From: a virus
Direction: 5' to 3' (one strand)
Length of the DNA: 64,000 nucleotides
Virus record (IMG/VR): IMGVR_UViG_3300045988_183134
Coordinates: 1 to 64,000 of that record
Position numbers and translations under genes: made by a program. This document shows positions 10,624 through 49,484 of this stretch, in pieces (the first letter of the stretch is position 1; each line of letters opens with the position of its first letter). Under the pieces are notes generated by a model. It was given only the letters and a program-made list of their open reading frames with translations. It was not told the DNA's origin and made no database searches.

Positions 10624-10645
10624 GTTAGAAATTAGGAGAATTTGC

Positions 10646-11098
10646 ATGATTCGAGTTAAGAAAGAGAACCACCGTAGTTGGTTCATGAGCAACTATTATC
10701 CTTGCGAATTTGTGATGAATGGGATTCGCTACAAGAACGCTGAAGCAGCGTTTCAGAGTCACAAGGTCCCACTGGAAGAGCGCAGACAGTTTGCGGACAT
10801 GCCACCGGCTTCTGCCAAGCGCTTTGGCCGCAATGTAGCTATCCCCGCAAACTGGGACAAAACTCGGGACGATGTAATGCGCCGCGTGGTGATGGCTAAA
10901 TTCGAACAGAATGAAGACCTCAAGCAGCGTCTCCTCGAAACGGGTACGCAGCCCATCGAGGAAGATACCACCAGCTGGCATGACAATTACTGGGGCGACT
11001 GCCATTGCCCGAAATGCCAGAACATCCCAGGTCAAAACCGGCTTGGAACTATTCTGATGGAAACGAGGGATAAATTGAAAAAGCAAGCTGGCAAATAA
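10646..11098 (+). CDS. NADAR (YbiA/DUF1768) family ADP-ribose-processing protein
   Basis: ATG after AGGAG; SNYYPCEF..YKNAEAAFQ..and E.TSWHDNYWGDC..GQNRLG.ILM motifs typical of NADAR. Confidence 0.8.
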   Translation: MIRVKKENHRSWFMSNYYPCEFVMNGIRYKNAEAAFQSHKVPLEERRQFADMPPASAKRFGRNVAIPANWDKTRDDVMRRVVMAKFEQNEDLKQRLLETGTQPIEEDTTSWHDNYWGDCHCPKCQNIPGQNRLGTILMETRDKLKKQAGK

Positions 11099-15818: not shown

Positions 15819-15852
15819 TTCGGTGCTGGATTTTTTATTGGGAGATATAGAC

Positions 15853-17663: not shown

Positions 17664-17677
17664 AGGAGACTACACCT

Positions 17678-35689: not shown

Positions 35690-35810
35690 TACTCCTAGAA
35701 CGAAACTTTGATTCGGGTTCTTTCAGCAAAAAGCGTAGGAACCAAAATCATACGAAATGATTGTGTTGACACATAAAAACAAGTATAATATATGCAAGGA
35801 AGTGATAATA

Positions 35811-36263
35811 ATGGTTCTGTATCATGGCAGCGATGTAATAGTCCGCAACCCTGAGGTCAGAAAAACAAGGTACGCCAAAGATTTTTCATGGGGATTCTAT
35901 TGCACTAGCAACTACGAACAAGCCGCTCGCTGGTCAAAAAAAGGCAGGTCTCGTGGTATTGTCAACGTGTTTGAATATACAGAATCTCCCATGCTAAATA
36001 TTAAGAAATTCCCCGAAATGAGTGATGAGTGGCTTGATTTTATTGCTATATGTCGCTCGGGCAAACATCATGACTATGATATTGTGGAAGGACCCATGGC
36101 GGATGACACCATTTGGAACTACGTCAACGACTTTCTAAGCGGTGATATTAGCCGTGAAGCTTTTTGGGCGTTGGCAAAATTCAAGCATCCCACGCATCAA
36201 ATCAGCTTTCACACGGAAGTCGCTTTGAAATGTCTCTCTTTTAAGGAGGCGATTGAAGTATGA
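35811..36263 (+). CDS. DUF3990-like protein (ADP-ribosyltransferase-fold candidate)
   Basis: LYHGS..V..P.......DFSWGFY.T....A..W .. DIVEGPMADD pattern recalled for DUF3990. Confidence 0.65.
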   Translation: MVLYHGSDVIVRNPEVRKTRYAKDFSWGFYCTSNYEQAARWSKKGRSRGIVNVFEYTESPMLNIKKFPEMSDEWLDFIAICRSGKHHDYDIVEGPMADDTIWNYVNDFLSGDISREAFWALAKFKHPTHQISFHTEVALKCLSFKEAIEV

Positions 36264-36807: not shown

Positions 36808-36835
36808 TTGTGCATCTGTGCGAATTGCATATAAT
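36808..36835 (+). promoter_or_regulatory. dyad-box promoter, family copy
   Basis: TTGTGC atct GTGCGAA ttgca TATAAT. Confidence 0.65.
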
Positions 36836-36947
36836 ACAAAATATAGAACGAAAGGCATCAAAAAACATCGTTGGTCGGGCAAAATCCGACCGAAAGGCTA
36901 GGGCGGGCTCAGTTTTGAACCTGCTCTTTCTTTTTATCGGAGGCTTT

Positions 36948-37475
36948 ATGTCAAACAAAGAAGAACGCATGAACCGCAATAAAAGCATCATCGAAGATTA
37001 CAAAAATAGAAAGCCGATTTTAGAAATCGCGAGGGAATATAATCTTTCAGAAACGATGTGCTACAAGATTCTAAAAGGTACGCAGGAGCCGCCTCGTTAT
37101 TTTGAAAAAAAGAGGAAGAGACTTACCACTCGAAATGAGCAAATTGTTAAACAGTATAAAGGCGGTATGACGGCCAGAGAATTGGGCAAGATGTACGGCA
37201 TTTCCATGCAGCGTATTTATGCAATCTTGCATTCGAGCGGAGAGTACGAAAGCCAAAAATACAATCATATTGAAACGGCTCTCAAAAAAGAGAAAAAGAT
37301 GCGGAACCAAACTTTTCTTGATGCTTACAAGAAAAATCCTCGAAAATCGATTATCGAGTTGAGCAGGGAGGTAAATATCAGCCCTTCACTAGGTTACCTT
37401 ATCCTTCATCAAAATGGGATTTACCAGTATAACGTAAAAGCCAGAGCTAAGGAGAATAGCGAAAATGCCGATTAA
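36948..37475 (+). CDS. tandem-HTH protein (3 repeats)
   Basis: GGAGG RBS; repeats ILEIAREYNLSETMCYKIL, ARELGKMYGISMQRIYAIL, IIELSREVNISPSLGYLIL. Confidence 0.7.
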   Translation: MSNKEERMNRNKSIIEDYKNRKPILEIAREYNLSETMCYKILKGTQEPPRYFEKKRKRLTTRNEQIVKQYKGGMTARELGKMYGISMQRIYAILHSSGEYESQKYNHIETALKKEKKMRNQTFLDAYKKNPRKSIIELSREVNISPSLGYLILHQNGIYQYNVKARAKENSENAD

Positions 37476-37983
37476 CAAGATTACCCACGTGTGTCTAACT
37501 CATGACAAAGTCAGGGCACGAAATGAAAAGATGCTGGAGGATGCCAAGAACGGTATGTCCCAGGAACAGCTGGCCGAAAAGTATCAAATCTGTGTTTCTA
37601 CTGTCCGATATAGTCTGAAGGACTTTTACGAAGAACAGGCCCGGCAGAGAAAAGCAAAGAAGAAAGCCTGGCAAACCCAGATGATTCATGAATATGAGAT
37701 GGGCGCAAAATCTCCGGAGCTTCAGGAAAAATACGGCATCAGTGGAACGCTCTTTTATCGGATTCTTCATGCGCACGGAAAGAATGGCCGACAAATCCAC
37801 AGCCAAAACCGTATCGAGACCGGCAAGAAAAGAAACGCCGAGATGGTCAGGAAATACAAGAACGGCGTTTCTGTCAAAGAGCTTGCGGAAGAATACGGGC
37901 TCAAAAAGGGAAGCGTATATCGCGCCATGAAGCGGTATAGTCCAGGCCCAGGGGAAAGTAAAAGTTGTCAAAGTGAGGAATAA
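37465..37983 (+). CDS. tandem-HTH protein (3 repeats)
   Basis: AAGGAG RBS; repeats QEQLAEKYQICVSTVRYSL, SPELQEKYGISGTLFYRIL, VKELAEEYGLKKGSVYRAM. Confidence 0.7.
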   Translation: MPINKITHVCLTHDKVRARNEKMLEDAKNGMSQEQLAEKYQICVSTVRYSLKDFYEEQARQRKAKKKAWQTQMIHEYEMGAKSPELQEKYGISGTLFYRILHAHGKNGRQIHSQNRIETGKKRNAEMVRKYKNGVSVKELAEEYGLKKGSVYRAMKRYSPGPGESKSCQSEE

Positions 37984-37987
37984 TTGC

Positions 37988-38941
37988 ATGGCTGCATCAA
38001 AGAAAGATGTTGCGAAGCAGCAGGTCAAAGAAGACCGCGAAAAGGTTCGGGAAATGTATCTTTCTGGCAAAACTGTCAAGGAAATCGCCAAGGAAACGTA
38101 TTTTTCAAGCTCTTATTGCTATGCCATGGTGAGAGACCTAGCAAAAGAAAAGAATCTTGCAAAGAAAGCAAAAAGAGCACCTCTCAACGAAGCTATGATT
38201 CAAGATGCGAAAGCCGGGATGACGGTTGCTGAAATCGCAAAGAAGCATGGCGTGACTTATCAGCAGTGCTACTATACTGTTTCTGAATACGCTCAAGCTA
38301 CGATTAAGAAGAACAAGAAAAAGCAGTCTGCTGCCACGAAAGTTCGCAATGCGGCTATGTTGGAAGATGCGAAAGCCGGAATGACTGATAAGGAAATCGC
38401 CAAAAAATACTTTTTGTCTCGAAGCAGTGTCCGTACCGTCCTTGCAGGGCATTTACATACAAATTCCAAAAAGTTGGATGAAAGGCGCAAGGCGATTCTT
38501 GCGGATTATGAGGCAGGAACGTCCTCAAAAGACATCTGTGAGAAATACGGTATTTCAAAATCCACTCTTTACAAGGACATGCGCCAAGTTGAAAAAACCT
38601 GTCAGGAATACTATCACAAGGCGCTGAAAGACAAGACCAATCAAAGGAATTCCGATATTCGAAGCAAAATCGAAAGAGGGGTCTCGGTCAGCACTATTGC
38701 CAAGGAATACGGAATCTCTAAAACGGCGATTTATGAAACGTTTCATCAGGAAAATGTCAGAGCTGGAATTTTACAGAAACGCGGCCGTCCGCGAAAAAAC
38801 ACGGAACGTAATGCACTGATTGCTAAACGCCACAGGGAAGGCGAGAAGGTGCAGGCGCTTGCCACTGAATATAATCTCTCTGTTTCGACGGTAAACACTA
38901 TTTGCAGTAGAAACAAAAATCAGAATATAACCTCATATTAA
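37988..38941 (+). CDS. tandem-HTH protein (6 repeats)
   Basis: GAGGAA RBS; six units of about 50 aa, e.g. VKEIAKETYFSSSYCYAMV and VSTIAKEYGISKTAIYETF. Confidence 0.7.
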   Translation: MAASKKDVAKQQVKEDREKVREMYLSGKTVKEIAKETYFSSSYCYAMVRDLAKEKNLAKKAKRAPLNEAMIQDAKAGMTVAEIAKKHGVTYQQCYYTVSEYAQATIKKNKKKQSAATKVRNAAMLEDAKAGMTDKEIAKKYFLSRSSVRTVLAGHLHTNSKKLDERRKAILADYEAGTSSKDICEKYGISKSTLYKDMRQVEKTCQEYYHKALKDKTNQRNSDIRSKIERGVSVSTIAKEYGISKTAIYETFHQENVRAGILQKRGRPRKNTERNALIAKRHREGEKVQALATEYNLSVSTVNTICSRNKNQNITSY

Positions 38942-40894: not shown

Positions 40895-41030
40895 GGAAGA
40901 GGCCCTGCAACAGCTGCAAAAGCACGCAGCAAACTATGCACAACGTATCACGATATATAAGATAGACGGTAGAACCGTGAAACGGGAAGTTGCCGAATAC
41001 GACCAGTGGGAAAAGAAGTGGATGAGTTAA
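40875..41030 (+). CDS. small hypothetical protein
   Basis: 51 aa, overlaps the previous gene end, GGGGAAAG upstream. Confidence 0.4.
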   Translation: MKQTDSEEEALQQLQKHAANYAQRITIYKIDGRTVKREVAEYDQWEKKWMS

Positions 41031-41032
41031 TC

Positions 41033-41509
41033 ATGAAGCACAAAATCTCGGAAACCGGCGCTCGGATGCTTAAATATCAAGAGCAGCTTGCCCGCGAATA
41101 CAAATACAAGCCTATTCCGCGTACCTTTTTCAAGGATGTGCGAGCAGAGTTCAAAGAAGCTCTGCCAGAATGGTGCAACGTATCCGGTGGTACGACCAAA
41201 CTCGAAACCAGTAACGGCACAGTCATTACCAGCGGGTACAACCGTATCGTGATTGGCGACTACGGCGCATTCGTTGAGTTTTCGCGTGCCCAAGCAAATG
41301 CACGTCATTTGAAAATCAAAGAGGGGCAGAGCTATCGTATCGAAGACCCGCGCTATGCTGAGCACGTCAAGTATCTTTGGCTCACGGCGGACGATGACTC
41401 AGACGTGAAAGTATACGACCAAAAGCGCTCGGTTGAGTACGCTGACTACAAGCCGGGGATGCTGTATGTCAGCGTGTACGAGGTGTTTCCGGCAGAAGAA
41501 GGTCACTGA
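41033..41509 (+). CDS. hypothetical protein
   Basis: 158-aa ORF from the ATG at 41033. Confidence 0.6.
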   Translation: MKHKISETGARMLKYQEQLAREYKYKPIPRTFFKDVRAEFKEALPEWCNVSGGTTKLETSNGTVITSGYNRIVIGDYGAFVEFSRAQANARHLKIKEGQSYRIEDPRYAEHVKYLWLTADDDSDVKVYDQKRSVEYADYKPGMLYVSVYEVFPAEEGH

Positions 41510-41657
41510 AAAGAAAGCCGAACCACGGGACGAATGGGGACAGGGTGATTCCATTGCCGACCTGTACGCGAAAAGTGGCGCTGTGGTTTCCATGGTAGGT
41601 TCGGCTAAAGATTTGCTGACTTCCCTGCAATCTGCCGGAACCACAAGACATTTGTGA
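41466..41657 (+). CDS. +1-frame overlapping small ORF
   Basis: 63 aa, GGGGA 8 nt upstream; the tail EWGQGDSIADLYAKSGAVVSMVGSAKDLL looks protein-like. Confidence 0.35.
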   Translation: MSACTRCFRQKKVTEKKAEPRDEWGQGDSIADLYAKSGAVVSMVGSAKDLLTSLQSAGTTRHL

Positions 41658-41736
41658 TGCGCTTGCCTCAACCACAAGATATAGTGGTATCTTAATGTTT
41701 GTTTACAATTTAGACACTATATATTGTGTCTTTTCA

Positions 41737-41765
41737 TTGACCGGATACCACATATATGGTATAAT
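41737..41765 (+). promoter_or_regulatory. strong sigma-A consensus promoter of the tRNA array
   Basis: TTGACC-17 nt-TATAAT with TGn extended -10; no GTGCGAA box. Confidence 0.7.
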
Positions 41766-42011
41766 ACAATTGTTCTCAGGAAGAGGAACGGCTCCTGAGA
41801 CATCAAGGTTTTCCTTTCCCCAATCTTGGTCGCATGGCTTCATTTGAGCTGACACAGGTGAAGCGTGAAAATCATCCGTTTCATAGTAATATCCTTCCTT
41901 TCTTTGGCGTGGGTAACTCCGCGCCAGCCGTCCAAGTAAACAGCCTCCACGCGGCGGACGGTGGACAACAGATGTTTCCGTGTTCCGGGCATCTGGCTAA
42001 TGTTTGTATTT
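41766..42011 (+). ncRNA. structured leader of the tRNA operon
   Basis: hairpins CTCAGGA..TCCTGAG, GCTTCA..TGAAGC and CCGTCC..GGACGG; no ORF. Confidence 0.35.
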
Positions 42012-42087
42012 GCTGGTTTAGCTCAGCTGGTAGAGCAACTGATTTGTAATCAGTCGGTCATCGGTTCAAGTCCGATTTCCAGCTCCA
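42012..42087 (+). tRNA. tRNA-Thr(TGT)
   Basis: hand-folded cloverleaf, loop TTTGTAA, CCA encoded; U.U mismatches at 6-67 and 7-66. Confidence 0.75.
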
Positions 42088-42560
42088 GACGCTATCCGTT
42101 GGATGTATCGAAATCACATGATACGATGCTATACACAACATCTGGCGGACAGCATGCCACCCATTAAGGCGGCCTCCTCGTGGCGGGTGGCGGACAGCGG
42201 CTCTTGCGGCTGCTGACGAATGTCTTAGAAGCATGCAAACGTACGAGCATCCCCGTCAAGTCGGGGCGCATCCAGACGCGACACAGCCGTAAAGGCGAGA
42301 TTGCTGCACGGCAACTGGTAAGTTTCGCCGCAGTCTCACACACAGCCCAACGACAACCGTTAACCCGATTTGACAGGGAATCAACGACAGGGCTCAAAAT
42401 TTGAAGTTGACCAACACCCAAGCGCTTTCTTGGATTCTCGCGTATCGTCAACGATGAGGTTCGCAAGATTGTCAGGTGGTGTGAAGATGACATCCGGGGA
42501 TGACGACCTACTAAACGGATGTCATGGCGGGGCTAAGTGAGGGTTCACCCGCAATCTTAT
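42088..42560 (+). ncRNA. 473-nt ORF-free structured spacer; candidate large ncRNA
   Basis: 10-bp stem ATGACATCCG..CGGATGTCAT, CCCCG-TCAAGT-CGGGG, several GNRA-type loops; only short, unsupported ORF-track entries (42164-42493 on the - strand, 42180-42404 on +). Confidence 0.35.
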
Positions 42561-42635
42561 GCAGGTATCGTATAACGGCTAATACTCCGCCCCTCCAAGG
42601 CGGAGACGCGGGTTCGACCCCCGCTACTTGCTCCA
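42561..42635 (+). tRNA. tRNA-Gly(TCC) with C33
   Basis: perfect CCGCC/GGCGG anticodon stem, loop CCTCCAA; D-arm TCGTATAACGGCTAATAC resembles Gly-UCC; discriminator U; CCA encoded. Confidence 0.75.
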
Positions 42636-42907
42636 CACGTCGCAGTCACCGTACGCCACGACGTTAAACTTGGTGAGCATGGTCCACTTGTGGTCCGCTG
42701 TCCGAATGTCGATGAGACAGCCTCAAAAATAATAGACAAACAGGTGCTGTGCCTGAAAGTATTCGAAAGTCCCGGTGTTAGTCGCGAATAAGACCGGAAA
42801 ACGGTGAATAGGGTACAATACAGAATCTATCGGCGTGGCTGCCGAATGGTGCTGGATGCGAGTTGGCTTCTCGCTCAAGGGGTGACCAGCATAAAACACC
42901 CTATCGT
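42636..42907 (+). ncRNA. 272-nt ORF-free spacer
   Basis: no credible ORF; GC-rich inverted repeats. Confidence 0.25.
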
Positions 42908-42983
42908 GCTCGATTAGCTCAGTTGGTAGAGCAGCGCATTCGTAACGCGCAGGTCGGCAGTTCGAACCTGCCATCAAGCCCCA
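42908..42983 (+). tRNA. tRNA-Thr(CGT)
   Basis: cloverleaf, loop TTCGTAA, anticodon arm GCGCATTCGTAACGCGC; one C.A acceptor mismatch; CCA encoded. Confidence 0.8.
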
Positions 42984-43021
42984 TTACCCAATGAAGCGAC
43001 AATAGAAAGGAGATGAAACTT

Positions 43022-43405
43022 ATGGAACAGGCAATTATCAATGTTGAAGGTACGACTACCATTGAAACCGCTGCAGCGGCAAAAAAGCTGATTGAAATGT
43101 TTGGCAATCAGAACGTCCGCGCCATCGCTGTCAACCGTGTAAACGACAAGAGCGACGAGGTCATTGTTGAACTCGATTTCGTTCCCGGTTTGGCACCGCA
43201 TCTGCACGGCTTCACGCTTCAGGTTAATGGCTTGACCTGTGGTTATGCTGGTACTGGTCCTTCCAATCTGTATGAAGTCCTGCAGGCGGCTGGCGTGAGT
43301 GAAGCTCAGGTAGCACGCGAGGACATCACTCAGAAGAGCACAAAAACCATTCCTCTGCGCCTGGAACGCGCCGTGACTCAGTACGGCGACTTCCAGTTTG
43401 CGTAA
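43022..43405 (+). CDS. hypothetical protein embedded in the tRNA array
   Basis: ATG 10 nt after GGAG (the track start at 43013 is too close to the RBS); 127 aa. Confidence 0.6.
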   Translation: MEQAIINVEGTTTIETAAAAKKLIEMFGNQNVRAIAVNRVNDKSDEVIVELDFVPGLAPHLHGFTLQVNGLTCGYAGTGPSNLYEVLQAAGVSEAQVAREDITQKSTKTIPLRLERAVTQYGDFQFA

Positions 43406-43435
43406 CGCTATTTGGCGGGCTTGACCCGCCATCAT

Positions 43436-43511
43436 GGAGGGATAGCTTAGCTGGATAAAGCACCTGCCGCAAAGCAGGGTATCGATGGTTCGAGGCCATC
43501 TCCCTTCTCCA
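43436..43511 (+). tRNA. tRNA-Cys(GCA)-like with a 6-nt anticodon loop
   Basis: good acceptor, D and T arms; CCTGC/GCAGG stem encloses CGCAAA (no U33); CCA encoded. Confidence 0.55.
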
Positions 43512-43870
43512 TCCAGACACCCTTTCGCTTCCTTTCGCCAAAGGTATCTGGGGTATTGTACTGCATTGCGTGTAGTACGGCCAATCAGGCGCGGAACTCC
43601 GAAACCATACCACGAAGAATTTTATCCTCTCCGCGCAGCATGGACATGCGATTTTACGGGGATAAATTCAAACCGAAATTGTGTCGAGTGGCGAAGACGG
43701 TTGCGACACTGGCGAAGCACATATCTGCTTCGTCAACCATCCATGAGAAAGCCTCCACGTGGCAGATGGTGGGCAACGCAGCAAAGCTGCGGCTGATTTC
43801 TTTCAAACCGGTATCTGAATAAATGCAGATAAATAGACGAAAAAATCAAAAAAGCAAAGGAGTACACAGC
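43512..43870 (+). ncRNA. 359-nt ORF-poor spacer
   Basis: no RBS-supported ORF between the tRNA and 43871. Confidence 0.25.
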
Positions 43871-45004
43871 ATGAGTAATCAGAAAATCATCAAAGCAATC
43901 GCAGGGATTGCAGCAGCCGGTATGATGGCAACTTGTCTGCCTGTCGCAGCATTCGCAGCCACCGGCGACACCTATCATTTCTCTTTCAGCAACGGTTCTT
44001 CCCAGGACCTGGCTCCGGGCGGCTCTATGACGTTCCCGGCAAGCCAGTATGACTACGGTTACTGGATTACCCTGCAGGGCCACGGCGGCTACACCTACAA
44101 CTACTATCCCGGCGACACTCTGCCGTACGATGCAGTTGACCAGTGGTTCACCGCTGACGGCATCACTTCCTGCTATGCGGCCGAAGGTAATCCGCGTTCC
44201 ATCACCATCAACTATCAGATTGACGGCAACACTGTGCTGACCGAAACTGACACCGCCACTTTCCCCGGCAGCGTTGATGGTCAGAGCGTTGAAGCCTGGA
44301 CCACGGATTCCGGTGATACTTACACCGCATCCAGCAAGAGCCTGAACCATGACCGCCTGTTCTACTACCTGGGCGACGACATCCACGACAATGTCCTGAC
44401 CCTGAAAGCCACTTCTGCATCCACTCCCGATGACGGCAAGGATGACAACAAGGGCGATGACAAGGGCGATGTCACCAACCCCGACGATAAGGGCGACAAC
44501 AAGGGCGACAATACCGGCGACAGCGGCACCACCACTCCCGATGACAAGGGCGACGTAGTGGCCCCCGATAAGGACAACACCGGTAAGGACAACACTTCTA
44601 CCGGCTCCAACAAGGGCAACGGTACTACCACCACTACTCCGACCGCTCCTCGCAAGAACGTTGAAGTCTCTGAGCACGGTGAAATTGCCGCCGCTATTGC
44701 CAATGGCACCTGGGGCAATGAGTACACCGTCTGCACCAGCTGTGGCTATCACAACTGGACCCGCAAGGGTAACGTTTACGTCTGTGACCATTGTGGTCAT
44801 GAAGTTCTGACTGTTAAGGGCGCTGATGGCGTCAAGGGCTATGCTGGCACTCTGGCTGGCAACGAGCCCCAGTACGCTTCTACCTCTGAAGCTCAGGCTG
44901 CTGCTGAAAAGCGTGAAGCCGCTTATGCCGCTTCCATCGCTGCTTTGCAGGCACAGGTTGCCGCTCGTGAAGCTGCTTATGCTGCTTCCCTGGGCATCCA
45001 CTAA
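43871..45004 (+). CDS. secreted GC-rich protein with (D/N)KGD repeats and a C-terminal Cys4 motif
   Basis: AAAGGAG RBS; signal peptide ..ATCLPVAAFAATG; DDKGDNKGDNTGD repeats; CTSCG..VCDHCGH; the antisense ORF 43733-45001 is a shadow. Confidence 0.8.
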   Translation: MSNQKIIKAIAGIAAAGMMATCLPVAAFAATGDTYHFSFSNGSSQDLAPGGSMTFPASQYDYGYWITLQGHGGYTYNYYPGDTLPYDAVDQWFTADGITSCYAAEGNPRSITINYQIDGNTVLTETDTATFPGSVDGQSVEAWTTDSGDTYTASSKSLNHDRLFYYLGDDIHDNVLTLKATSASTPDDGKDDNKGDDKGDVTNPDDKGDNKGDNTGDSGTTTPDDKGDVVAPDKDNTGKDNTSTGSNKGNGTTTTTPTAPRKNVEVSEHGEIAAAIANGTWGNEYTVCTSCGYHNWTRKGNVYVCDHCGHEVLTVKGADGVKGYAGTLAGNEPQYASTSEAQAAAEKREAAYAASIAALQAQVAAREAAYAASLGIH

Positions 45005-45041
45005 TTTGCCATCCTCTAACTAACGGTAATCGATAGTTATT

Positions 45042-45115
45042 CGAGGATTCGCCAAACGGTAAGGCATCAGGCTTTGACCCTGACAACGGTTGTTCGACTC
45101 GACCATTCTCGGCCA
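45042..45115 (+). tRNA. tRNA-Gln(TTG)
   Basis: cloverleaf, loop CTTTGAC, D-arm GCCAAACGGTAAGGC; CCA encoded. Confidence 0.8.
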
Positions 45116-45195
45116 ACGCTCACTTTCATGCGCATCGGAAGTGAGATTCCTCAAAGCTGTGTTCCCATAAGCAAGGCACGGAAGATGCGCGACAA

Positions 45196-45271
45196 GTGCT
45201 CGTAACTCAATCGGTAGAGTACCCGACTTTTAATCGGGGTGTTCGGGATTCGATTTCCCGCGAGCGCACCA
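45196..45271 (+). tRNA. tRNA-Lys(TTT)
   Basis: cloverleaf, loop CTTTTAA; CCA encoded. Confidence 0.85.
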
Positions 45272-45302
45272 TGCCCGGCAGAGCATTATCTGCCACTTTT
45301 GT

Positions 45303-45378
45303 GGGTGTATAGCTCAGTAGGCAGAGCGGCGGACCGTTAATCCGTTTGTCGCAGGTTCAAATCCTGCTACGCCCGCCA
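45303..45378 (+). tRNA. tRNA-Asn(GTT) with C33
   Basis: cloverleaf, loop CCGTTAA; CCA encoded. Confidence 0.8.
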
Positions 45379-45381
45379 TAA

Positions 45382-45459
45382 GCTCCTCTGGTGAAATTGG
45401 CAGACACAGTGCGCTCAAACCGCACCGTTTTGAGGGTTCGAATCCCTCGGGGAGTACCA
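45382..45459 (+). tRNA. tRNA with CAA (Leu) anticodon and Leu-type D-arm but no long variable arm
   Basis: perfect GTGCG/CGCAC stem, loop CTCAAAC; D-arm TGGTGAAATTGGCAGACAC; 6-nt variable region; A73; CCA encoded. Confidence 0.6.
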
Positions 45460-45488
45460 TGTCCGGCAGTACAACAACTGCCATTTAT

Positions 45489-45564
45489 GGGTTGTTAGCT
45501 CAGCTGGTAGAGCAACGGACCGTTAATCCGTGGGCCGCAGGTTCAAACCCTGTACAACCCGCCA
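45489..45564 (+). tRNA. tRNA-Asn(GTT) with C33, second copy
   Basis: cloverleaf, loop CCGTTAA; CCA encoded. Confidence 0.8.
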
Positions 45565-45567
45565 TAT

Positions 45568-45642
45568 GCTCCAGTGGCGAAACTGGCAAACGCGGCGGCT
45601 TTATGTCCCGTTTTACTCTGGGTTCGACTCCCAGCTGGAGTA
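45568..45642 (+). tRNA. tRNA with TAT (Ile, AUA) anticodon on the same Leu-like scaffold
   Basis: loop TTTATGT, stem has a C.C at 31-39; D-arm TGGCGAAACTGGCAAACGC; A73; no encoded CCA. Confidence 0.5.
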
Positions 45643-45649
45643 TCTATAT

Positions 45650-45725
45650 AGGGGTGTAGCTCAAGTGGTAGAGCAGCGGTCTCCAAAACCGCTTGTTGCA
45701 TGTTCGAGTCGTGTTACCCCTGCCA
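45650..45725 (+). tRNA. tRNA-Trp(CCA)
   Basis: AGGGG 5' end, loop CTCCAAA; CCA encoded. Confidence 0.85.
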
Positions 45726-45735
45726 CAATAAGAAA

Positions 45736-45764
45736 AGCCGTCCTCACATAAGAGGCGGCTTTTT
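45736..45764 (+). terminator. intrinsic terminator after the first tRNA block
   Basis: AGCCGTCCTC..GAGGCGGCT hairpin followed by TTTTT. Confidence 0.65.
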
Positions 45765-45807
45765 GTTTTGGAGAGTATACAGACCAAAAAACTAAACCAC
45801 AAGTTGA

Positions 45808-45835
45808 TTGCAGATGTGCAAAAACATGGTATAAT
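45808..45835 (+). promoter_or_regulatory. promoter related to the dyad-box family (shifted box)
   Basis: TTGCAG at GTGCAAA aacatgg TATAAT. Confidence 0.45.
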
Positions 45836-45869
45836 AATATCAGAACGAAACGAAAGGAGATACCCCAAA

Positions 45870-46010
45870 ATGCTGTGCAACACTGTTAATGTCATGTCGT
45901 ATGAGTATAGTTACGAATATTCTGAGTTCATGTCCTTTGAACGCAGTTTTATTTCTCATACTCCTCGACAGGCAAAAACAGACCATGTACAGATGCGGTG
46001 CGTCTTCTAA
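45870..46010 (+). CDS. 46-aa hypothetical peptide
   Basis: AAAGGAG RBS 8 nt upstream of the ATG at 45870. Confidence 0.4.
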   Translation: MLCNTVNVMSYEYSYEYSEFMSFERSFISHTPRQAKTDHVQMRCVF

Positions 46011-46028
46011 GCGATAACTGCATGTCAT

Positions 46029-46064
46029 AGCTGCTTGTCGAGATTTCGGCAGGCAGCTTTTTTG
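46029..46064 (+). terminator. intrinsic terminator
   Basis: AGCTGC..GCAGCT hairpin followed by TTTTTT. Confidence 0.6.
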
Positions 46065-46095
46065 TTGCCTGCAATACAGAAAGGCAGCAAGAAAA

Positions 46096-46317
46096 ATGAA
46101 CGTTCCTACTATTGATATCCAGCAGACAGGTGCCAATATCAAGGCCCTGCGAAAGGCAGCAGGCATCAAGGTGAAGGATGTGGCAGACATGCTCGGTGTA
46201 TCTCCGCAGGCGGTTGCTAAATGGCAAGCCGGAACAGCGCTTCCCACCATCGATAACCTTGTGATATTAGCAGCAATGCTCGATACGAAAATTGATGACA
46301 TCCTTGTCATCGCATAA
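46096..46317 (+). CDS. XRE/Cro-type HTH regulator
   Basis: 73 aa; IKALRKAAGIKVKDVADMLGVSPQAVAKWQAG..P.....ILA.ML. Confidence 0.8.
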   Translation: MNVPTIDIQQTGANIKALRKAAGIKVKDVADMLGVSPQAVAKWQAGTALPTIDNLVILAAMLDTKIDDILVIA

Positions 46318-46346
46318 ACCCTCGCCGCAGGATTGCGGCTATATAT

Positions 46347-46426
46347 GGCCCGTTGGACGAATTGGTAGAGTTGCCGCCCTTTCACGGCGGAGGTTATTGT
46401 GGGTTCGAAACCCACACGGGTCACCA
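46347..46426 (+). tRNA. tRNA-Glu(TTC), atypical D-arm and 8-nt variable loop
   Basis: acceptor GGCCCGT/ACGGGTC-A and arm CCGCCCTTTCACGGCGG match bacterial tRNA-Glu; CCA encoded. Confidence 0.7.
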
Positions 46427-46427
46427 T

Positions 46428-46503
46428 GCTTCTGTAGCTCAACAGGTAGAGCAGTGGTCTGAAGAGCCACGTGCAGCTGGTTCGAATCCAGCCGGAAGCA
46501 CCA
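46428..46503 (+). tRNA. tRNA-Phe(GAA)
   Basis: cloverleaf, loop CTGAAGA; CCA encoded. Confidence 0.85.
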
Positions 46504-46527
46504 TCGAGGTTTTATACCTCATTCTAT

Positions 46528-46612
46528 GTGTCGGTATGCAAGTGGTTAAAGCAAACGGTCTGTAAAACCGCTCCGTTACGGTTCACTGGTTCGAATCCAG
46601 TCCGACACACCA
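46528..46612 (+). tRNA. tRNA-Tyr(GTA), class II
   Basis: loop CTGTAAA, variable arm CCG-TTA-CGG; CCA encoded. Confidence 0.85.
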
Positions 46613-46615
46613 TAA

Positions 46616-46689
46616 GGCCCCTTCGACAAGTTGGTCTAAGTCGCCAGCCTCTCAAGCTGGAGTCGGCAGTTCGAGTCTGCCAGGGGTCA
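46616..46689 (+). tRNA. tRNA-Glu(CTC)
   Basis: perfect CCAGC/GCTGG stem, loop CTCTCAA; Glu-like acceptor GGCCCCT/AGGGGTC-A; no encoded CCA. Confidence 0.7.
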
Positions 46690-46725
46690 TACAAGCACCT
46701 ATGTTATGTCAAAAAGGTGCATTAT

Positions 46726-46815
46726 GCAGAGGTCGCCTAACGGTAGGGCAGCAGCTTGCTAAGCTGCCGTCGCGGAAATCGCGGCATGTGAGTTCGAATC
46801 TCACCCTCTGCGCCA
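46726..46815 (+). tRNA. tRNA-Ser(GCT), class II
   Basis: loop TTGCTAA, long variable arm CGCGG-AAAT-CGCGG, G73; CCA encoded. Confidence 0.8.
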
Positions 46816-46818
46816 TCT

Positions 46819-46906
46819 GCTTGCTTGTTCGAGTGGTTGATGAAATCGGTCCAGAAAACCGACGATGGGAGACTGTCCGAAGGTTCGAATCCTTCAGCAA
46901 GCGCCA
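46819..46906 (+). tRNA. class II Ser-like tRNA with loop CCAGAAA (anticodon AGA, C33)
   Basis: perfect acceptor GCTTGCT/AGCAAGC, TCGGT/ACCGA stem, long variable arm, G73; CCA encoded. Confidence 0.55.
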
Positions 46907-47265
46907 CTGCCCTCATTCTGTGCGGTATCCGTGCAGGTGAGGGCTTTTTCTTTTGCTTTTCGCTTCGAATTTCGGACTCGAATGGCGTTAATGGTCGGAT
47001 ATTCTTGATTATACATGCCTTTGCTGTATGGCAAATAGCTCCAAACAGTATTGGTTTTTACACCCAATTCTTCTGCAATTTCAGGAACTGACATACCGTT
47101 CGCACGCAGCTTCCCGATTTTTTCTGATGTTTCATCTGACCATGCCCCGGCTGTAATCAGTATTTTGCGCACTTTCTGCAATGAGATGCCTGCACGTTTG
47201 GCAATGGTTCTTCTAGGTATACCTTGCTCATGGAGCCGGAGAACCGTCTGCATTGTCGCGTCCAT
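46894..47265 (-). CDS. tandem-HTH protein (2 repeats), minus strand
   Basis: IPRRTIAKRAGISLQKVRKIL and SVPEIAEELGVKTNTVWSYL; the C-terminal tail runs through the terminator and 13 nt of the tRNA. Confidence 0.65.
   Translation of the reverse strand: MDATMQTVLRLHEQGIPRRTIAKRAGISLQKVRKILITAGAWSDETSEKIGKLRANGMSVPEIAEELGVKTNTVWSYLPYSKGMYNQEYPTINAIRVRNSKRKAKEKALTCTDTAQNEGSGAC
46909..46949. terminator. terminator at the end of the tRNA array, shared with the convergent gene
   Basis: GCCCTCA..TGAGGGC hairpin followed by TTTTT. Confidence 0.65.
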
Positions 47266-47430
47266 TTGTCAGTACCTCGCCGTTATCGATTTTTGTATTG
47301 CCCTAATTGTTGTACTTTAATCATACAGCAAAGCAACAAAATTGTCCAGGAAGCAAAAGTGCCTTCATTTGCCACTGATTCATCTATTGCAAAAGAATGT
47401 GTATAAACTGTTACCATTTAACGCTTTCCG

Positions 47431-47459
47431 TTGTGAGAAATTGCGAATCGCGGTATAAT
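47431..47459 (+). promoter_or_regulatory. dyad-box promoter, family copy (17-nt spacer)
   Basis: TTGTGA gaaa TTGCGAA tcgcgg TATAAT. Confidence 0.55.
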
Positions 47460-47491
47460 TAAAGTGTAGAAAATGAAAGGATTTTTGCCGT

Positions 47492-48163
47492 ATGTACATT
47501 GATTTCACGAGCAAGCAGTACTCTTTCATCCTGCACGCTCTTGCCATCATGATAACGTTTTATAGCAACGATTTTTCCTCTATCTGCAAAGAGGTTGGAG
47601 AGGCTTATGGAGCAAGCGAGGCAGACATTGCAAGTGCTTGCGCTACTCTGACGGCTATCAACGTAACGGCTCCTGTTAAAAGCTATTCCGACAAGTGCAG
47701 CGAAATACTGGAAGATATGCTGCATCATGCACGGGAACTGCCGGAAAAGGATGCTCCGTATAAATACAGTATCGGCTTAGATACTCCTTCCTGGAAAGTC
47801 GTTGCCAATGCGTTGGATACATACTCTCGCATTCTAATGGGTCAATTTGGTGTCATTTATGAAGCCCTCGATATTTCTGGTAACGATGAACAGCACTTTC
47901 AGGCGTATCATGATGCACGCTGGAACGGAACAGGCGTCATCGAAGCCCGTGACCTTCTAATTCCGCAGCTCAAAAGGATGGGAATTGGCTGGAACGGAAA
48001 CTTCGGTATTTCCAACGCAGGGCTTGCCTACAACAGCAAGCTGGCATACGAGATTCTTAAAACCATTCGATATACGACAGAGAAACGAGATAGCTCCGTT
48101 CTGAAAGTGACAAACGAGCCGCTGCCGCATGTCGAGGGCTCTTTCCAAATCAAAGCACTGTGA
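47492..48163 (+). CDS. hypothetical protein
   Basis: 223-aa ORF with GAAAGGA RBS. Confidence 0.65.
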   Translation: MYIDFTSKQYSFILHALAIMITFYSNDFSSICKEVGEAYGASEADIASACATLTAINVTAPVKSYSDKCSEILEDMLHHARELPEKDAPYKYSIGLDTPSWKVVANALDTYSRILMGQFGVIYEALDISGNDEQHFQAYHDARWNGTGVIEARDLLIPQLKRMGIGWNGNFGISNAGLAYNSKLAYEILKTIRYTTEKRDSSVLKVTNEPLPHVEGSFQIKAL

Positions 48164-48407: not shown

Positions 48408-49484
48408 GTGGATAATATCATTGTGAACAGTGCTCTCTGGTATGCCGAGCAGAGCAGTCAATTTCTTGCGAATTCTGGGGCCAACAAGCTGCTGGATAAA
48501 GGCTATGACTACTATGTAAGTGAATTTATTCCGCTTGGGCACCGCCTTATCCAAAATGGTCAAATTGCTGCCAATGCGATGGATGGAGAGCTTGCCGCAC
48601 AGTTCTCGATGGCATACGTTGCAAACTATTGGCGTGCAGCAAAAACCGTATATAATTTTGCGCCGGAGTTTCTCAGAACATTGGCTGAGACTGAGGACGC
48701 ACCTATTTATTCTGACATTATGATGCGGTTGCCATACAGAGATTTTGTCATGAATCTGCCCACTGGCTCTCATCATGATGCGATGTTCGTACACATTGAA
48801 TTCGATGCTTCCCACGGGCCAAATGATGTGGATACGCTCTTCCTGATTGTTCCTTTTAAGGCGAACCCGAATGTCGATAACATCGAACTTTGCCAGTGCA
48901 TGCAGTGGTGTCTCAACGGCAAAAAGCTGATTGAATCTTATCGGCGCAACAATGATGCTCGCGAGCAGGCATTTCAGAACGGAACTGATTCTGCAACTGT
49001 CAATGACGCCACGGTTTCAAACGTACCAGGTGCCGTTCTCAGCGAGGAAGAGCTGCAAAAGCAGCGAGAATTCAACGCCGGTATTGAGCCGTATCTTCGT
49101 ATCGCGGTCTCTGCCGCTTATTATCTTGCATCAAAAAACGCAGAAATCAAAGAGGTAAAAATCCCGAAAGAGAAGCGGCCCGTCCTTGTTTCCAAACCCG
49201 GTGCTACTCCTAAAAAAGTAAATGTCAAAACTTACAATGTGGGCTTTGTAATCGGCAAGAGCTTTGAAATGCAGCTGGTTTCCGGTGCAGAATATCAGAA
49301 ATCCACAGCAACTGGCACAGGCCGTACGGTCAGACCACATGTCCGCCGTGCTCATTGGCACCACTACTGGGTTGGAGAAGGTCGAACTCGCTTAGAAGTC
49401 CGCTGGATTGAGCCAACTTTTGTGCTGCCGGAAGGGAAACGTGAGATAAAAATTGCAACAGTAAGACGCGTCATGGGCACTTAA
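48408..49484 (+). CDS. hypothetical protein, His/Trp-motif paralog family (copy 2)
   Basis: GTG after GAGGTGG; RPHVRRAHWHHYWVGEGRTRLEVRWIEP near the C-terminus. Confidence 0.7.
   Translation: MDNIIVNSALWYAEQSSQFLANSGANKLLDKGYDYYVSEFIPLGHRLIQNGQIAANAMDGELAAQFSMAYVANYWRAAKTVYNFAPEFLRTLAETEDAPIYSDIMMRLPYRDFVMNLPTGSHHDAMFVHIEFDASHGPNDVDTLFLIVPFKANPNVDNIELCQCMQWCLNGKKLIESYRRNNDAREQAFQNGTDSATVNDATVSNVPGAVLSEEELQKQREFNAGIEPYLRIAVSAAYYLASKNAEIKEVKIPKEKRPVLVSKPGATPKKVNVKTYNVGFVIGKSFEMQLVSGAEYQKSTATGTGRTVRPHVRRAHWHHYWVGEGRTRLEVRWIEPTFVLPEGKREIKIATVRRVMGT

What the first reader, a model, noticed from the sequence alone, without database searches (positions are those of the whole stretch)
42012..46906. 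17-tRNA array in which five members break the U33 rule of the anticodon loop
By hand folding, Gly-UCC (42561-42635, loop CCUCCAA) carries C33. So do both Asn-GUU copies (45303-45378 and 45489-45564, loop CCGUUAA) and a Ser-like class II tRNA (46819-46906, loop CCAGAAA). A Cys-like tRNA (43436-43511) has a 6-nt loop CGCAAA with position 33 missing. The flanking anticodon stems are perfect, so this is not a folding ambiguity. U33 is nearly universal. Anticodon nucleases read loop nucleotides: PrrC acts on Lys, colicin E5-type enzymes act on Asn/Tyr/His/Asp, and several defence effectors also target tRNAs. Altered loops in phage tRNAs have been proposed as an escape route from such enzymes. These tRNAs may be nuclease-resistant replacements or decoys.
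Basis: partly seen in the sequence, partly recalled or inferred. Interest (0 to 1): 0.75.

Follow-up and report, generated by a model that had tools for sequence, protein, structure and literature searches.

The report
Phage tRNA array lacking universal U33
A gut-phage cluster of 17 transfer-RNA genes has five apparently working members that lack the almost universal uridine next to the anticodon; this change is fixed in about 70 related phages and may hide these tRNAs from host enzymes, but that role is untested.

Summary
ARAGORN and the Rfam tRNA model find all 17 tRNAs. Both give C33 in Gly-UCC, both Asn-GUU copies and Ser-AGA, and a 6-nt loop (U33 deleted) in a Cys-type tRNA. No alternative fold restores U33.

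- **Origin.** The window comes from an uncultured phage family, probably of human-gut Bacillota. In 80 relatives found through a flanking protein, the odd loops are fixed: Gly 62/62, Ser-AGA 73/73, Cys 60/61, array Asn 120/120.
- **More events.** One sub-lineage has gained a further C33 in Ser-GCU (9/73).
- **Function.** C33 tRNA-Asn occurs on at least five unrelated phage backbones and keeps the cloverleaf through compensatory changes, so these are not pseudogenes. One phage species carries U33 and C33 alleles of an otherwise identical tRNA-Asn.
- **Baseline.** In 801 control phage tRNAs, C33 is 1.6%. Four of 17 gives p = 1.4e-4.

The nuclease-escape reading is plausible but unproven. C33 would remove the UGU motif that TGT needs, and possibly block t6A. 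Near-neutral tolerance of C33 remains a serious rival. I rate this a new variant of a known kind, of moderate to high interest.

The parts
41737..41765 (+). Sigma-70-type promoter-like site (TTGACC, 17 nt, TATAAT, with TG extended -10) upstream of the tRNA region
   Evidence: 11 of 12 matches, the best site in 41000-47600. This is a consensus match only.
41927..42007 (+). HDV-like (theta-type) self-cleaving ribozyme that ends 4 nt before tRNA-Thr(UGU)
   Evidence: RF02682, 47.9 bits, above the gathering score of 44
42012..42087 (+). tRNA-Thr(UGU). Loop UUUGUAA with U33. Two U-U mismatches at the base of the acceptor stem.
42156..42227 (+). Second HDV-like ribozyme candidate, below threshold
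   Evidence: RF02682, 34.1 bits (gathering score 44), E = 0.0014
42561..42635 (+). tRNA-Gly(UCC) with C33. Loop CCUCCAA at 42592-42598, C33 at 42593. U73, CCA encoded.
   Evidence: (56.0 bits). The same loop is in 62/62 relatives and in all 71 backbone matches.
42908..42983 (+). tRNA-Thr(CGU). U33. A31-C39 mismatch at the loop-closing pair.
43436..43511 (+). Cys-type tRNA (GCA, U73, CCA) with a 6-nt anticodon loop CGCAAA at 43468-43473. Position 33 is deleted.
   Evidence: ARAGORN labels it '?(Cys|Leu)'; 46.4 bits, CM gap at position 33. 60/61 relatives and 71/71 backbone matches carry the same loop.
43736..43803 (+). Third HDV-like ribozyme candidate, just below threshold
   Evidence: RF02682, 40.7 bits (gathering score 44)
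45042..45115 (+). tRNA-Gln(UUG), U33
45196..45271 (+). tRNA-Lys(UUU). Canonical loop CUUUUAA. A53-U61 in place of G53-C61.
45303..45378 (+). tRNA-Asn(GUU) copy 1 with C33. Loop CCGUUAA at 45334-45340, C33 at 45335. G73, CCA.
   Evidence: (68.5 bits, the best tRNA in the window)
45382..45459 (+). tRNA-Leu(CAA) with a Leu-type D arm but no long variable arm (78 nt). U33, A73.
45489..45564 (+). tRNA-Asn(GUU) copy 2 with C33. Loop at 45520-45526, C33 at 45521.
   Evidence: (67.1 bits). It sits 186 nt from copy 1, the same spacing as in the relatives.
45567..45644 (+). Leu-type body with anticodon UAU. Most relatives have UAA here. No encoded CCA.
45650..45725 (+). tRNA-Trp(CCA), U33
45732..45769 (+). 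Intrinsic-terminator-like hairpin plus U-run after tRNA-Trp
   Evidence: -21.2 kcal/mol hairpin followed by UUUUUGUUUU
46347..46426 (+). tRNA-Glu(UUC), 80 nt, enlarged variable loop, U33
46428..46503 (+). tRNA-Phe(GAA), U33
46528..46612 (+). tRNA-Tyr(GUA), class II. Loop CUGUAAA, so U33-G34-U35 is intact.
46616..46689 (+). tRNA-Glu(CUC), U33
46726..46815 (+). tRNA-Ser(GCU). U33 in this window, C33 in a diverged sub-lineage (9 of 73 relatives).
46819..46906 (+). tRNA-Ser(AGA), class II, with C33 and A34. Loop CCAGAAA at 46851-46857, C33 at 46852. G73, CCA.
   Evidence: (47.6 bits). 73/73 relatives have the same loop, and there is a compensatory D-stem change.
46909..46954 (+). Intrinsic-terminator-like hairpin plus U-run that closes the array
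   Evidence: -26.1 kcal/mol hairpin followed by a U-run

Best explanation
**What is shown.** These are real, expressed-looking, structurally maintained tRNA genes of an uncultured phage family, probably infecting human-gut Bacillota. U33-to-C changes (Gly-UCC, Asn-GUU x2, Ser-AGA) and a U33 deletion (Cys) are fixed in that family and keep arising within it.

**What is inferred.**
- C33 is the one substitution at position 33 that still permits decoding. This follows from established knowledge: eukaryotic initiator tRNAs carry C33, and U33C variants remain active.
- In this phage-host system it is retained because it changes how host proteins that read the anticodon loop see the tRNA.
- For tRNA-Asn the concrete consequence is loss of the U33-G34-U35 motif required by tRNA-guanine transglycosylase, so no queuosine at position 34. 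t6A37 may also be lost.
- More generally, a changed or missing nucleotide at the 32|33 or 33|34 junction, and an altered U-turn, could spare the phage copy from an anticodon-loop nuclease or modifying toxin that disables the host copy.
- The phage would then keep translating AAY, GGR, UCN and UGY codons with its own 'stealth' tRNAs.

The enzyme being avoided is unknown.
For: 1. The structure is intact. All five have full cloverleaves, U8, T54-T55-C56, A58, the expected discriminators and encoded CCA. CM scores are 46-68 bits. U8 is kept in 17/17 but U33 in only 12/17, so the departure is specific to position 33 and not general decay.
2. Expression signals are present: a promoter-like site at 41737 (11/12 matches) and terminators at 45732 and 46909.
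3. The loops are fixed without reversion in relatives sampled through a flanking protein, which is unbiased with respect to the tRNAs: Gly 62/62, Ser-AGA 73/73, Cys 60/61, array Asn 120/120. That protein ranges from 82 to 100% identity across them.
4. U-to-C changes continue in the same family. Ser-GCU is C33 in 9/73 copies, together with a compensatory anticodon-stem change. Thr-UGU is C33 in 1/61. No C-to-U change was seen.
5. Purifying selection acts on structure. Seventeen distinct C33 tRNA-Asn sequences on at least five backbones are 97.5% paired, 14 of 21 pairs show double changes, and 0 of 500 shuffles reach this. Ser-AGA has a compensatory U11-A24 to C11-G24 change.
6. C33 is derived in phages. 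One 'Gln+Asn' phage species has an otherwise identical tRNA-Asn with U33 (diverse haplotypes) or C33 (one tight haplotype).
7. It is not a common cellular trait. Of the first 120 genome matches to the C33 Asn 15-mer, only one lay in a tRNA, and that was in a phage-like tRNA cluster. In viral contigs, 85 of 90 matches lay in tRNAs.
8. Literature:
   - TGT needs UGU (Nakanishi 1994, cited in PMC1635277).
   - E. coli TsaBCDE did not modify a U33C tRNA (PMC8887486).
   - Some tRNases cut at 32|33 (CdiA-CT EC536, PMC11724271).
   - Phage tRNAs with anticodon-arm changes do bypass tRNA-cleaving defences (PMC10264068, PMC12409363).
9. Genes resembling anti-defence genes surround the array: NADAR, a DUF3990/ART-like protein and an AcrVA2-like protein.
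Against: - No nuclease, host or cleavage data exist for this system.
- The two anticodon nucleases for which U33C was tested (colicin E5, gamma-toxin) are indifferent to it.
- The TsaBD-tRNA structure shows no base-specific contact with U33.
- Avoiding Q34 cannot be general, because tRNA-Tyr in the same array keeps UGU.
- The four affected isoacceptors share no obvious feature. C33 in control phages is spread over many isoacceptors at about 1.6%, which looks like low-level tolerance and not targeted selection.
- The family is shallow (mostly 87-100% identity), so fixation is weak evidence for selection.
- The window was chosen for its oddity.
- A 6-nt loop is likely to decode poorly.
Confidence: 0.4

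Rival explanations
1. Near-neutral tolerance. Phage tRNAs are auxiliary and under relaxed constraint. U33-to-C is the mildest change at this site, so it drifts to fixation now and then. This family simply accumulated several such changes and gains no benefit from them.
For: - C33 occurs at about 1.6% across many isoacceptors in unrelated phages, always more often than G33 or A33 (13 against 3 and 2), with no clustering by locus (p = 0.29).
- U33 and C33 segregate as a polymorphism within one phage species.
- Within the family, position 33 varies at about the average per-site rate.
- The array carries many other oddities: Leu tRNAs without a variable arm, stem mismatches and an A53-U61 pair.
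- Tested nucleases ignore U33C.
- The window was selected for its oddity.
Against: - Five hits in 17 genes has p of about 1e-4 against the phage baseline.
- All changes within the family run U to C, with none back among roughly 310 C33 gene copies.
- The two Asn paralogues diverged by about 22%, with compensation in the stems, and both kept C33.
- U8 and the T-loop are fully conserved in the same genes.
Confidence: 0.3
2. The host lineage itself uses C33 (or tolerates it through its ribosome or enzymes), and the phage tRNAs merely mirror host tRNAs.
For: The host is unidentified. Repeated U-to-C changes in one family would fit a host-specific tolerance.
Against: - The capped genome scan found no cellular tRNA-Asn with C33 among 120 matches.
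- In the related 'Gln+Asn' phage, the diverse and apparently ancestral allele is U33.
- Twelve of the 17 tRNAs in the same array keep U33.
Confidence: 0.08
3. Some of these molecules, above all the 6-nt-loop Cys-type tRNA, do not decode. They act as decoys or inhibitors that bind a host tRNA-directed enzyme, or they have another non-translational role.
For: - A 6-nt loop lacks the normal anticodon presentation. It is nonetheless invariant in 71/71 copies.
- Authors of the PARIS work raised the idea that overexpressed phage tRNAs might inhibit AriB.
Against: - Identity elements for aminoacylation are retained (U73 plus GCA; G73; CCA).
- The Asn genes are the best-scoring tRNAs in the window.
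- The Cys and Gly genes show too little diversity to test for constraint.
Confidence: 0.08
4. The genomic C33 is converted to U33 in the RNA by C-to-U editing, so the mature tRNAs are canonical.
For: Editing would turn CCUCCAA and CCGUUAA into the exact bacterial consensus loops. All four affected loops share a C32-C33 context.
Against: - No cytidine-deaminase-like domain was found in about 70 window ORFs scanned with Pfam.
- To my knowledge no enzyme that edits C33 is known.
- Editing cannot explain the deleted U33 in the Cys-type tRNA or the A34 in Ser.
Confidence: 0.04

Closest known systems
Phage tRNAs proposed or shown to escape tRNA-cleaving defences: mycobacteriophage C1 tRNAs (van den Berg 2023, PMC10264068); T5 tRNA-Lys, Thr and Asn against PARIS AriB (PMC12409363); T5 tRNA-Tyr against retron Eco7 (PMC11555353)
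   Same: These are phage-encoded arrays that duplicate host isoacceptors and differ from the bacterial consensus in the anticodon arm. The isoacceptors overlap: Thr-UGU, Lys-UUU and Asn-GUU are all present here. The neighbourhood contains genes resembling anti-defence genes.
   Different: The described escape changes lie at positions 32, 37, 38, 39 or 41, or in the cleavage motif. None involves the near-invariant U33 or a shortened loop. Here no host, nuclease or resistance has been demonstrated.
Cytoplasmic initiator tRNA-Met of multicellular eukaryotes (C33)
   Same: It is a natural, functional tRNA with C33. C33 changes recognition by a loop-modifying enzyme: yeast KEOPS and E. coli TsaBCDE reject C33 substrates (PMC8887486).
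   Different: It is an initiator, not an elongator, it is eukaryotic, and only a single tRNA species is affected. Here four bacterial-type elongator isoacceptors in a virus carry C33.
Theta (HDV-like) ribozyme-associated tRNAs of gut phages (Kienbeck 2024, PMC10879173)
   Same: It is a gut Caudoviricetes-type tRNA region with RF02682-type ribozymes next to tRNAs.
   Different: The described ribozymes act on tRNA 3' trailers and are linked to suppressor tRNAs and recoding. Here the only above-threshold copy lies 4 nt upstream of a tRNA, no suppressor tRNA is present, and ORFs read through in the standard code.
Frameshift-suppressor or recoding tRNAs with altered loop size, for example the 8-nt loop of yeast mitochondrial tRNA-Thr1 (PMC4267643)
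   Same: The Cys-type tRNA has a non-7-nt anticodon loop in an otherwise normal body.
   Different: Its loop is shorter (6 nt), not longer. No programmed frameshift or recoded gene was found here.

Membership tests
tRNA genes (Rfam RF00005) | Cloverleaf that scores above the family gathering threshold | tested here: met
   All 17 score 46.4-68.5 bits against a gathering score of 29. ARAGORN calls all 17.
tRNA genes (Rfam RF00005) | 7-nt anticodon loop with U33 | tested here: not met
   Four genes have C33 and one has a 6-nt loop with position 33 absent. Twelve genes meet the feature.
tRNA genes (Rfam RF00005) | Conserved U8, T-loop T54-T55-C56 and A58, discriminator and 3' CCA appropriate to the isoacceptor | tested here: met
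   U8 and TTC...A are present in 17/17. G73 is present for Asn and Ser, U73 for Gly and Cys. CCA is encoded in all five odd genes.
Functional (selected) tRNA as opposed to a pseudogene | Stems maintained by compensatory substitutions among homologues | tested here: met
   C33 Asn: 14 of 21 pairs show double changes, 97.5% paired, 0 of 500 shuffles reach this. Ser-AGA and Ser-GCU show compensatory changes. Gly and Cys have too little diversity to judge.
Anticodon-nuclease-resistant phage tRNAs (van den Berg 2023; PARIS and retron bypass) | Encoded by a phage | tested here: met
   Syntenic arrays occur in at least 70 IMG/VR viral contigs. PHROG hits and a tail lysozyme are present. The nearest GenBank relatives are faecal 'Bacteriophage sp.' records and Bacillota phages.
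Anticodon-nuclease-resistant phage tRNAs (van den Berg 2023; PARIS and retron bypass) | Differs from the host's cognate tRNA at the nuclease recognition or cleavage site | tested here: inconclusive
   The host is unknown. The loops differ from the bacterial consensus (CUGUUAA, CUUCCAA, CUGCAAA) only at position 33. A U33 allele of the same Asn gene exists in a related phage.
Anticodon-nuclease-resistant phage tRNAs (van den Berg 2023; PARIS and retron bypass) | The host carries a tRNase that targets that isoacceptor, and the phage tRNA resists it | not testable with these tools
   No host genome or biochemistry is available. The literature shows that colicin E5 and gamma-toxin are NOT blocked by U33C.
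Theta-ribozyme-associated recoding tRNAs (Kienbeck 2024) | Theta or HDV-like ribozyme directly adjacent to a tRNA | tested here: met
   An RF02682 match at 41927-42007 (47.9 bits, above 44) ends 4 nt before tRNA-Thr, but on its 5' side. Two further copies fall below threshold.
Theta-ribozyme-associated recoding tRNAs (Kienbeck 2024) | Suppressor tRNA and stop-codon reassignment | tested here: not met
   None of the 17 is a suppressor tRNA. Long ORFs are intact in code 11 and all three stop codons are used.

The most novel reading that the evidence does not exclude
U33-to-C (or loss of U33) is a recurrent, adaptive 'stealth' change in phage elongator tRNAs. It exploits the fact that the ribosome tolerates C33 while host anticodon-loop readers do not. 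Those readers include tRNA-guanine transglycosylase, the t6A machinery and still-unidentified anticodon nucleases or tRNA-modifying toxins of gut Bacillota. The phage's Asn, Gly, Ser and Cys tRNAs would then stay unmodified and uncleaved while the host's are disabled. The roughly 1.6% of phage tRNAs with C33 would be the footprint of this arms race.
Probability: 0.3. Interest if true: 0.8.

Novelty: new variant of a known kind. Interest (0 to 1): 0.6.

Why it matters
U33 is one of the most conserved nucleotides in biology and is usually treated as required for the anticodon U-turn. Here a natural virus family keeps four C33 elongator tRNAs and one tRNA lacking position 33. A related phage species carries U33 and C33 alleles of the same gene. 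Together these give a ready-made system to ask two questions. What does U33 actually do in vivo? And do phages change it to escape host enzymes that read the anticodon loop?

If the change is adaptive, it adds a new and easily searchable signature to the emerging picture of tRNA-centred phage-host conflict. It would also point to an unknown tRNA-targeting defence in gut Bacillota. If it is neutral, it shows that the constraint on U33 is far weaker for auxiliary tRNAs than textbooks imply. It also matters for annotation, because ARAGORN labels the Cys-type gene 'tRNA-???'.

Tried and rejected
1. **Alternative registers or folds that would restore U33 or a 7-nt loop.** None pairs. ARAGORN, Infernal and RNAfold agree.
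2. **Assembly or sequencing artefact.** Rejected, because identical loops occur in about 70 independent contigs.
3. **Pseudogenes.** Rejected for Asn and Ser through covariation. This remains untestable for Gly and Cys.
4. **Cellular trait.** A genome-contig scan for the C33 Asn 15-mer returned 120 rows (capped). Nearly all were chance matches outside tRNAs, which fits about 1,100 expected by chance for a 15-mer in 596 Gb. Only L136 held a tRNA.
5. **Denominator for U33 Asn in viral contigs.** I used those loci as a control set instead.
6. **Phage-encoded deaminase, RNA ligase, tRNA-modifying enzyme or anticodon nuclease in the window.** Pfam and PHROG scans of about 70 ORFs found none.
7. **Close cultured relatives.** None of the 50,697 GenBank phage records holds this array. 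Protein hits are distant.
8. **Shared flanking genes among the independent C33-Asn phage lineages.** None was found.
9. **t6A avoidance as a general rule.** C33 in control phages is not enriched in ANN decoders, and the TsaBD structure argues against base-specific reading of U33.
10. **Q34 avoidance as a general rule.** Rejected, because tRNA-Tyr keeps UGU.
11. **tRNA-Glu(UUC).** I first read it as a Leu-derived body. Comparison with tRNA-Glu(CUC) shows an ordinary Glu-type D arm.

Full report
**1. The observation**

The Rfam tRNA covariance model matches all 17 at 46.4-68.5 bits against a gathering score of 29.

The CM alignments and the ARAGORN bracket strings agree on the anticodon arms:

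| tRNA | Loop | Position 33 |
|---|---|---|
| Gly-UCC | CCUCCAA | C33 at 42593 |
| Asn-GUU copy 1 | CCGUUAA | C33 at 45335 |
| Asn-GUU copy 2 | CCGUUAA | C33 at 45521 |
| Ser-AGA | CCAGAAA | C33 at 46852, with A34 |
| Cys-type | CGCAAA (43468-43473) | deleted; the CM places the gap exactly at 33 |

Shifting the register never yields a paired stem. The other 12 tRNAs have U33. All 17 have U8 and a TTC...A T-loop. The five odd genes carry the expected discriminators (G73 for Asn and Ser, U73 for Gly and Cys) and an encoded CCA.

**2. Is it more than chance?**

I built a control from 120 unrelated viral loci, fetched because they hold a canonical tRNA-Asn arm. ARAGORN finds 852 tRNAs there, 801 of them distinct: U33 97.7%, C33 1.6% (13), G33 0.4%, A33 0.3%, and five odd-sized loops.

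Position 33 is still the most conserved loop position in phage tRNAs. C33 is not vanishingly rare, though, and it is by far the commonest exception. Non-canonical tRNAs are not clustered by locus in the control (p = 0.29).

Against this baseline, 4 C33 in 17 has p = 1.4e-4 and 5 non-canonical in 17 has p = 9e-5. The window was flagged because it looked odd, so these values overstate the surprise.

**3. What the window is**

- A promoter-like site (TTGACC, 17 nt, TGnTATAAT; 11/12 matches) lies at 41737-41765. Strong terminator hairpins follow tRNA-Trp (45732-45769) and the last tRNA (46909-46954).
- ORFs read through in the standard code.
- Pfam and PHROG hits include Mor-like activators, a AAA ATPase, a tail lysozyme, HNH and GmrSD nucleases, an EcoRI-type methylase, a TIR protein, NADAR, a DUF3990/ART-like protein and an AcrVA2-like protein.
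- No deaminase, RNA ligase, tRNA-modifying enzyme or recognisable anticodon nuclease was found (same calls, plus 53 and 54).
- No GenBank phage holds the array. The nearest protein relatives are uncultured 'Bacteriophage sp.' records from human faeces and phages of Bacillota.
- Three HDV-like (theta-type) ribozyme matches lie in the leader and spacers. One is above threshold.

**4. Relatives**

An exact scan of IMG/VR for the C33 Asn arm (CGGACCGTTAATCCG) gave 90 stretches. Of these, 85 lie in tRNAs and 73 belong to one family. That family shares this syntenic array, where * marks a loop without a normal U33:

Thr, Gly*, Thr, Cys*, Ser-UGA, Gln, Lys, Asn*, Leu, Asn*, Leu, Trp, Glu, Phe, Tyr, Glu, Ser-GCU, Ser-AGA*

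Scans for the Gly and Cys backbones that leave the loop unspecified found 70 stretches each. Every copy carried the odd loop.

An unbiased sample came from a flanking protein (47492-48163), which fetched 80 loci at 82-100% identity:

| tRNA | Odd loop present |
|---|---|
| Gly (C33) | 62/62 |
| Ser-AGA (C33) | 73/73 |
| Cys (6-nt loop) | 60/61 |
| Asn in the array (C33) | 120/120 |

Two extra, inserted Asn genes have U33.

The most diverged sub-lineage has gained a further C33 in Ser-GCU (9/73), together with a compensatory anticodon-stem change. One contig has C33 in Thr-UGU. No C-to-U reversion was seen. Something about this phage-host system makes C33 acceptable or favoured, again and again.

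**5. Beyond the family**

C33 tRNA-Asn also occurs on unrelated backbones:
- a 'Met Cys Met Asn* Leu Gln' phage group (11 loci, two of which also carry a U33 Asn)
- L073
- L081
- a phage-like cluster in a gammaproteobacterial MAG (L136)

None of the viral lineages shares detectable proteins with the window in the flanks; L136 was not included in that comparison.

Seventeen distinct C33 Asn sequences keep the cloverleaf. They are 97.5% paired, 14 of 21 pairs show changes on both sides, and 0 of 500 shuffles reach this. The anticodon arm was fixed by the search, but the other three helices were not. These are functional tRNAs, not pseudogenes.

In a 'Gln+Asn' phage species whose flanks are 94-98% identical, the same tRNA-Asn exists with U33 (six loci, diverse haplotypes) or C33 (five loci, one tight haplotype). 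C33 is therefore a recent derived allele there.

In cellular genomes, the first 120 matches to the 15-mer were chance hits, apart from L136. About 1,100 chance hits are expected in 596 Gb.

A caveat: five or so C33 lineages among what must be thousands of phage tRNA-Asn lineages fits the general 1-2% rate. It does not by itself show selection specific to Asn.

**6. Mechanism**

*Shown.* The genes are real and structurally maintained, C33 is derived, and it is fixed and recurring in this family.

*Established knowledge.*
- C33 is the mildest substitution at this site. Eukaryotic initiator tRNAs carry it.
- TGT needs U33-G34-U35 (Nakanishi 1994, cited in PMC1635277), so the phage Asn tRNAs should stay G34.
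- E. coli TsaBCDE failed to place t6A on a U33C tRNA (PMC8887486). However, the TsaBD-tRNA structure shows no base-specific contact with U33 (PMC13276492).
- Some tRNases cut at the bonds flanking position 33. CdiA-CT EC536 cuts at 32|33 (PMC11724271). PrrC cuts at 33|34, from my own knowledge.
- Phage tRNAs with anticodon-arm changes bypass PARIS and retron defences, and this has been generalised as a hypothesis (PMC10264068).

*Inferred.* C33, or the loss of U33, makes these tRNAs poor substrates for a host enzyme that reads the anticodon loop, while they still decode.

*Against.*
- Colicin E5 cleaves a U33C minihelix as well as wild type, and gamma-toxin is unaffected by U33C.
- tRNA-Tyr in the same array keeps UGU.
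- The affected isoacceptors share no obvious feature.
- The family is shallow.
- A cultured phage analysed in this way (Sf14) differs from its host only at loop positions 32, 37 and 38 (PMC12482277). A change at position 33 is thus a departure from the described pattern.

*Confidences.*

| Reading | Confidence |
|---|---|
| Adaptive 'stealth' | about 0.4 |
| Near-neutral tolerance | about 0.3 |
| Host mirroring | 0.08 |
| Decoy or non-decoding role (mainly the 6-nt-loop tRNA) | 0.08 |
| C-to-U editing | 0.04 |

**7. Comparison with known systems, and novelty**

The array works like, and may be a member of, the class of phage tRNAs that replace host tRNAs under attack. The defining features of that class (a host nuclease and demonstrated resistance) cannot be tested here. 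I found no description of C33 elongator tRNAs, or of 6-nt anticodon loops, in phages in the searchable literature.

I rate it a new variant of a known kind. The interest is moderate to high because it concerns one of the most invariant nucleotides known, and because natural U33/C33 allele pairs make the question directly testable.

Noticed in passing
window 41927-42007, 42156-42227, 43736-43803 (+): There are three HDV-like (theta-type, RF02682) ribozyme matches in the leader and spacers of the tRNA operon, scoring 47.9, 34.1 and 40.7 bits against a gathering score of 44. The best one ends 4 nt upstream of tRNA-Thr(UGU), not downstream of a tRNA as described for theta ribozymes. The array has no suppressor tRNA.
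   Followed up: partly
window 45382-45459 and 45567-45644; control loci L211-L330: Both Leu-type tRNAs have a Leu-like D arm and A73 but lack the long variable arm (78 nt). In the control set, 30 of 63 phage tRNA-Leu genes are also short (74-80 nt). Class-I-like Leu tRNAs therefore seem common in phages.
   Followed up: partly
window 45567-45644: This Leu-type body has anticodon UAU (Ile AUA codon) here and in 7 relatives. About 52 relatives have UAA at the same site, a single A36-to-U change. It also lacks an encoded CCA. If LeuRS ignores the anticodon, as it does in E. coli, this tRNA could read AUA as Leu. It could equally be a dead allele.
   Followed up: partly
window 45038-45041, compared with L010, L018, L050 and L056: Relatives carry an extra segment of about 1.35 kb here that contains a canonical tRNA-Ser(UGA). 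A related JGI contig also has an HD_4-domain gene in this interval. The window lacks the segment, which leaves the C33/A34 Ser-AGA as its only UCN reader.
   Followed up: partly
L005, L011, L026, L029, L063 against L259, L270, L293, L304, L308, L328: A separate 'Gln+Asn' phage species (flanks 94-98% identical) carries an otherwise identical tRNA-Asn with either C33 or U33. The C33 copies form one tight haplotype. This is a natural allele pair suited to experiments.
   Followed up: yes
L449-L457 (diverged sub-lineage of the family); L037; L457: Additional U33-to-C events occur within the family. Ser-GCU has loop UCGCUAA in 9 loci, together with a compensatory 28/40 stem change. Thr-UGU has CCUGUAA in one contig. 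An inserted Met-CAU has CCCAUAC.
   Followed up: partly
window 934-3099, 10577-11098, 15808-18814, 35757-36263, 48408-49484: The window holds a dense set of defence and anti-defence-like genes: a PLD-family nuclease, NADAR, an EcoRI-type adenine methylase, a TIR-domain protein, a GmrSD-HNH nuclease, a DUF3990/ART-like protein and an AcrVA2-like protein (the last from precomputed Pfam on the JGI homologue).
   Followed up: no
window 43871-45004 (+): A 377-aa ORF sits inside the tRNA array. It appears to have an N-terminal signal-like segment, a Gly/Asp/Lys-rich repeat region and a Cys-rich C-terminal part. It has no Pfam hit and is about 99% conserved in 41 relatives.
   Followed up: no
window 36810-38941 (+): Three consecutive paralogous ORFs are built from repeated Mor/HTH-type DNA-binding modules (late transcriptional activator PHROGs). 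They lie just upstream of a AAA ATPase and the tRNA region.
   Followed up: no
window 42012-42087, 42908-42983, 45196-45271: Other non-canonical details occur in U33-bearing tRNAs. Thr-UGU has two U-U mismatches at the acceptor base. Thr-CGU has an A31-C39 mismatch. Lys-UUU has A53-U61 in place of G53-C61.
   Followed up: no
control loci L212, L310, L327, L234, L300: C33 recurs in unrelated phages as 'CC NNN AA' loops: Ile-GAU in 3 of 24, Glu-UUC, Glu-CUC, Gly-UCC, Lys-UUU and Ala-UGC. L327 carries three non-U33 tRNAs.
   Followed up: partly
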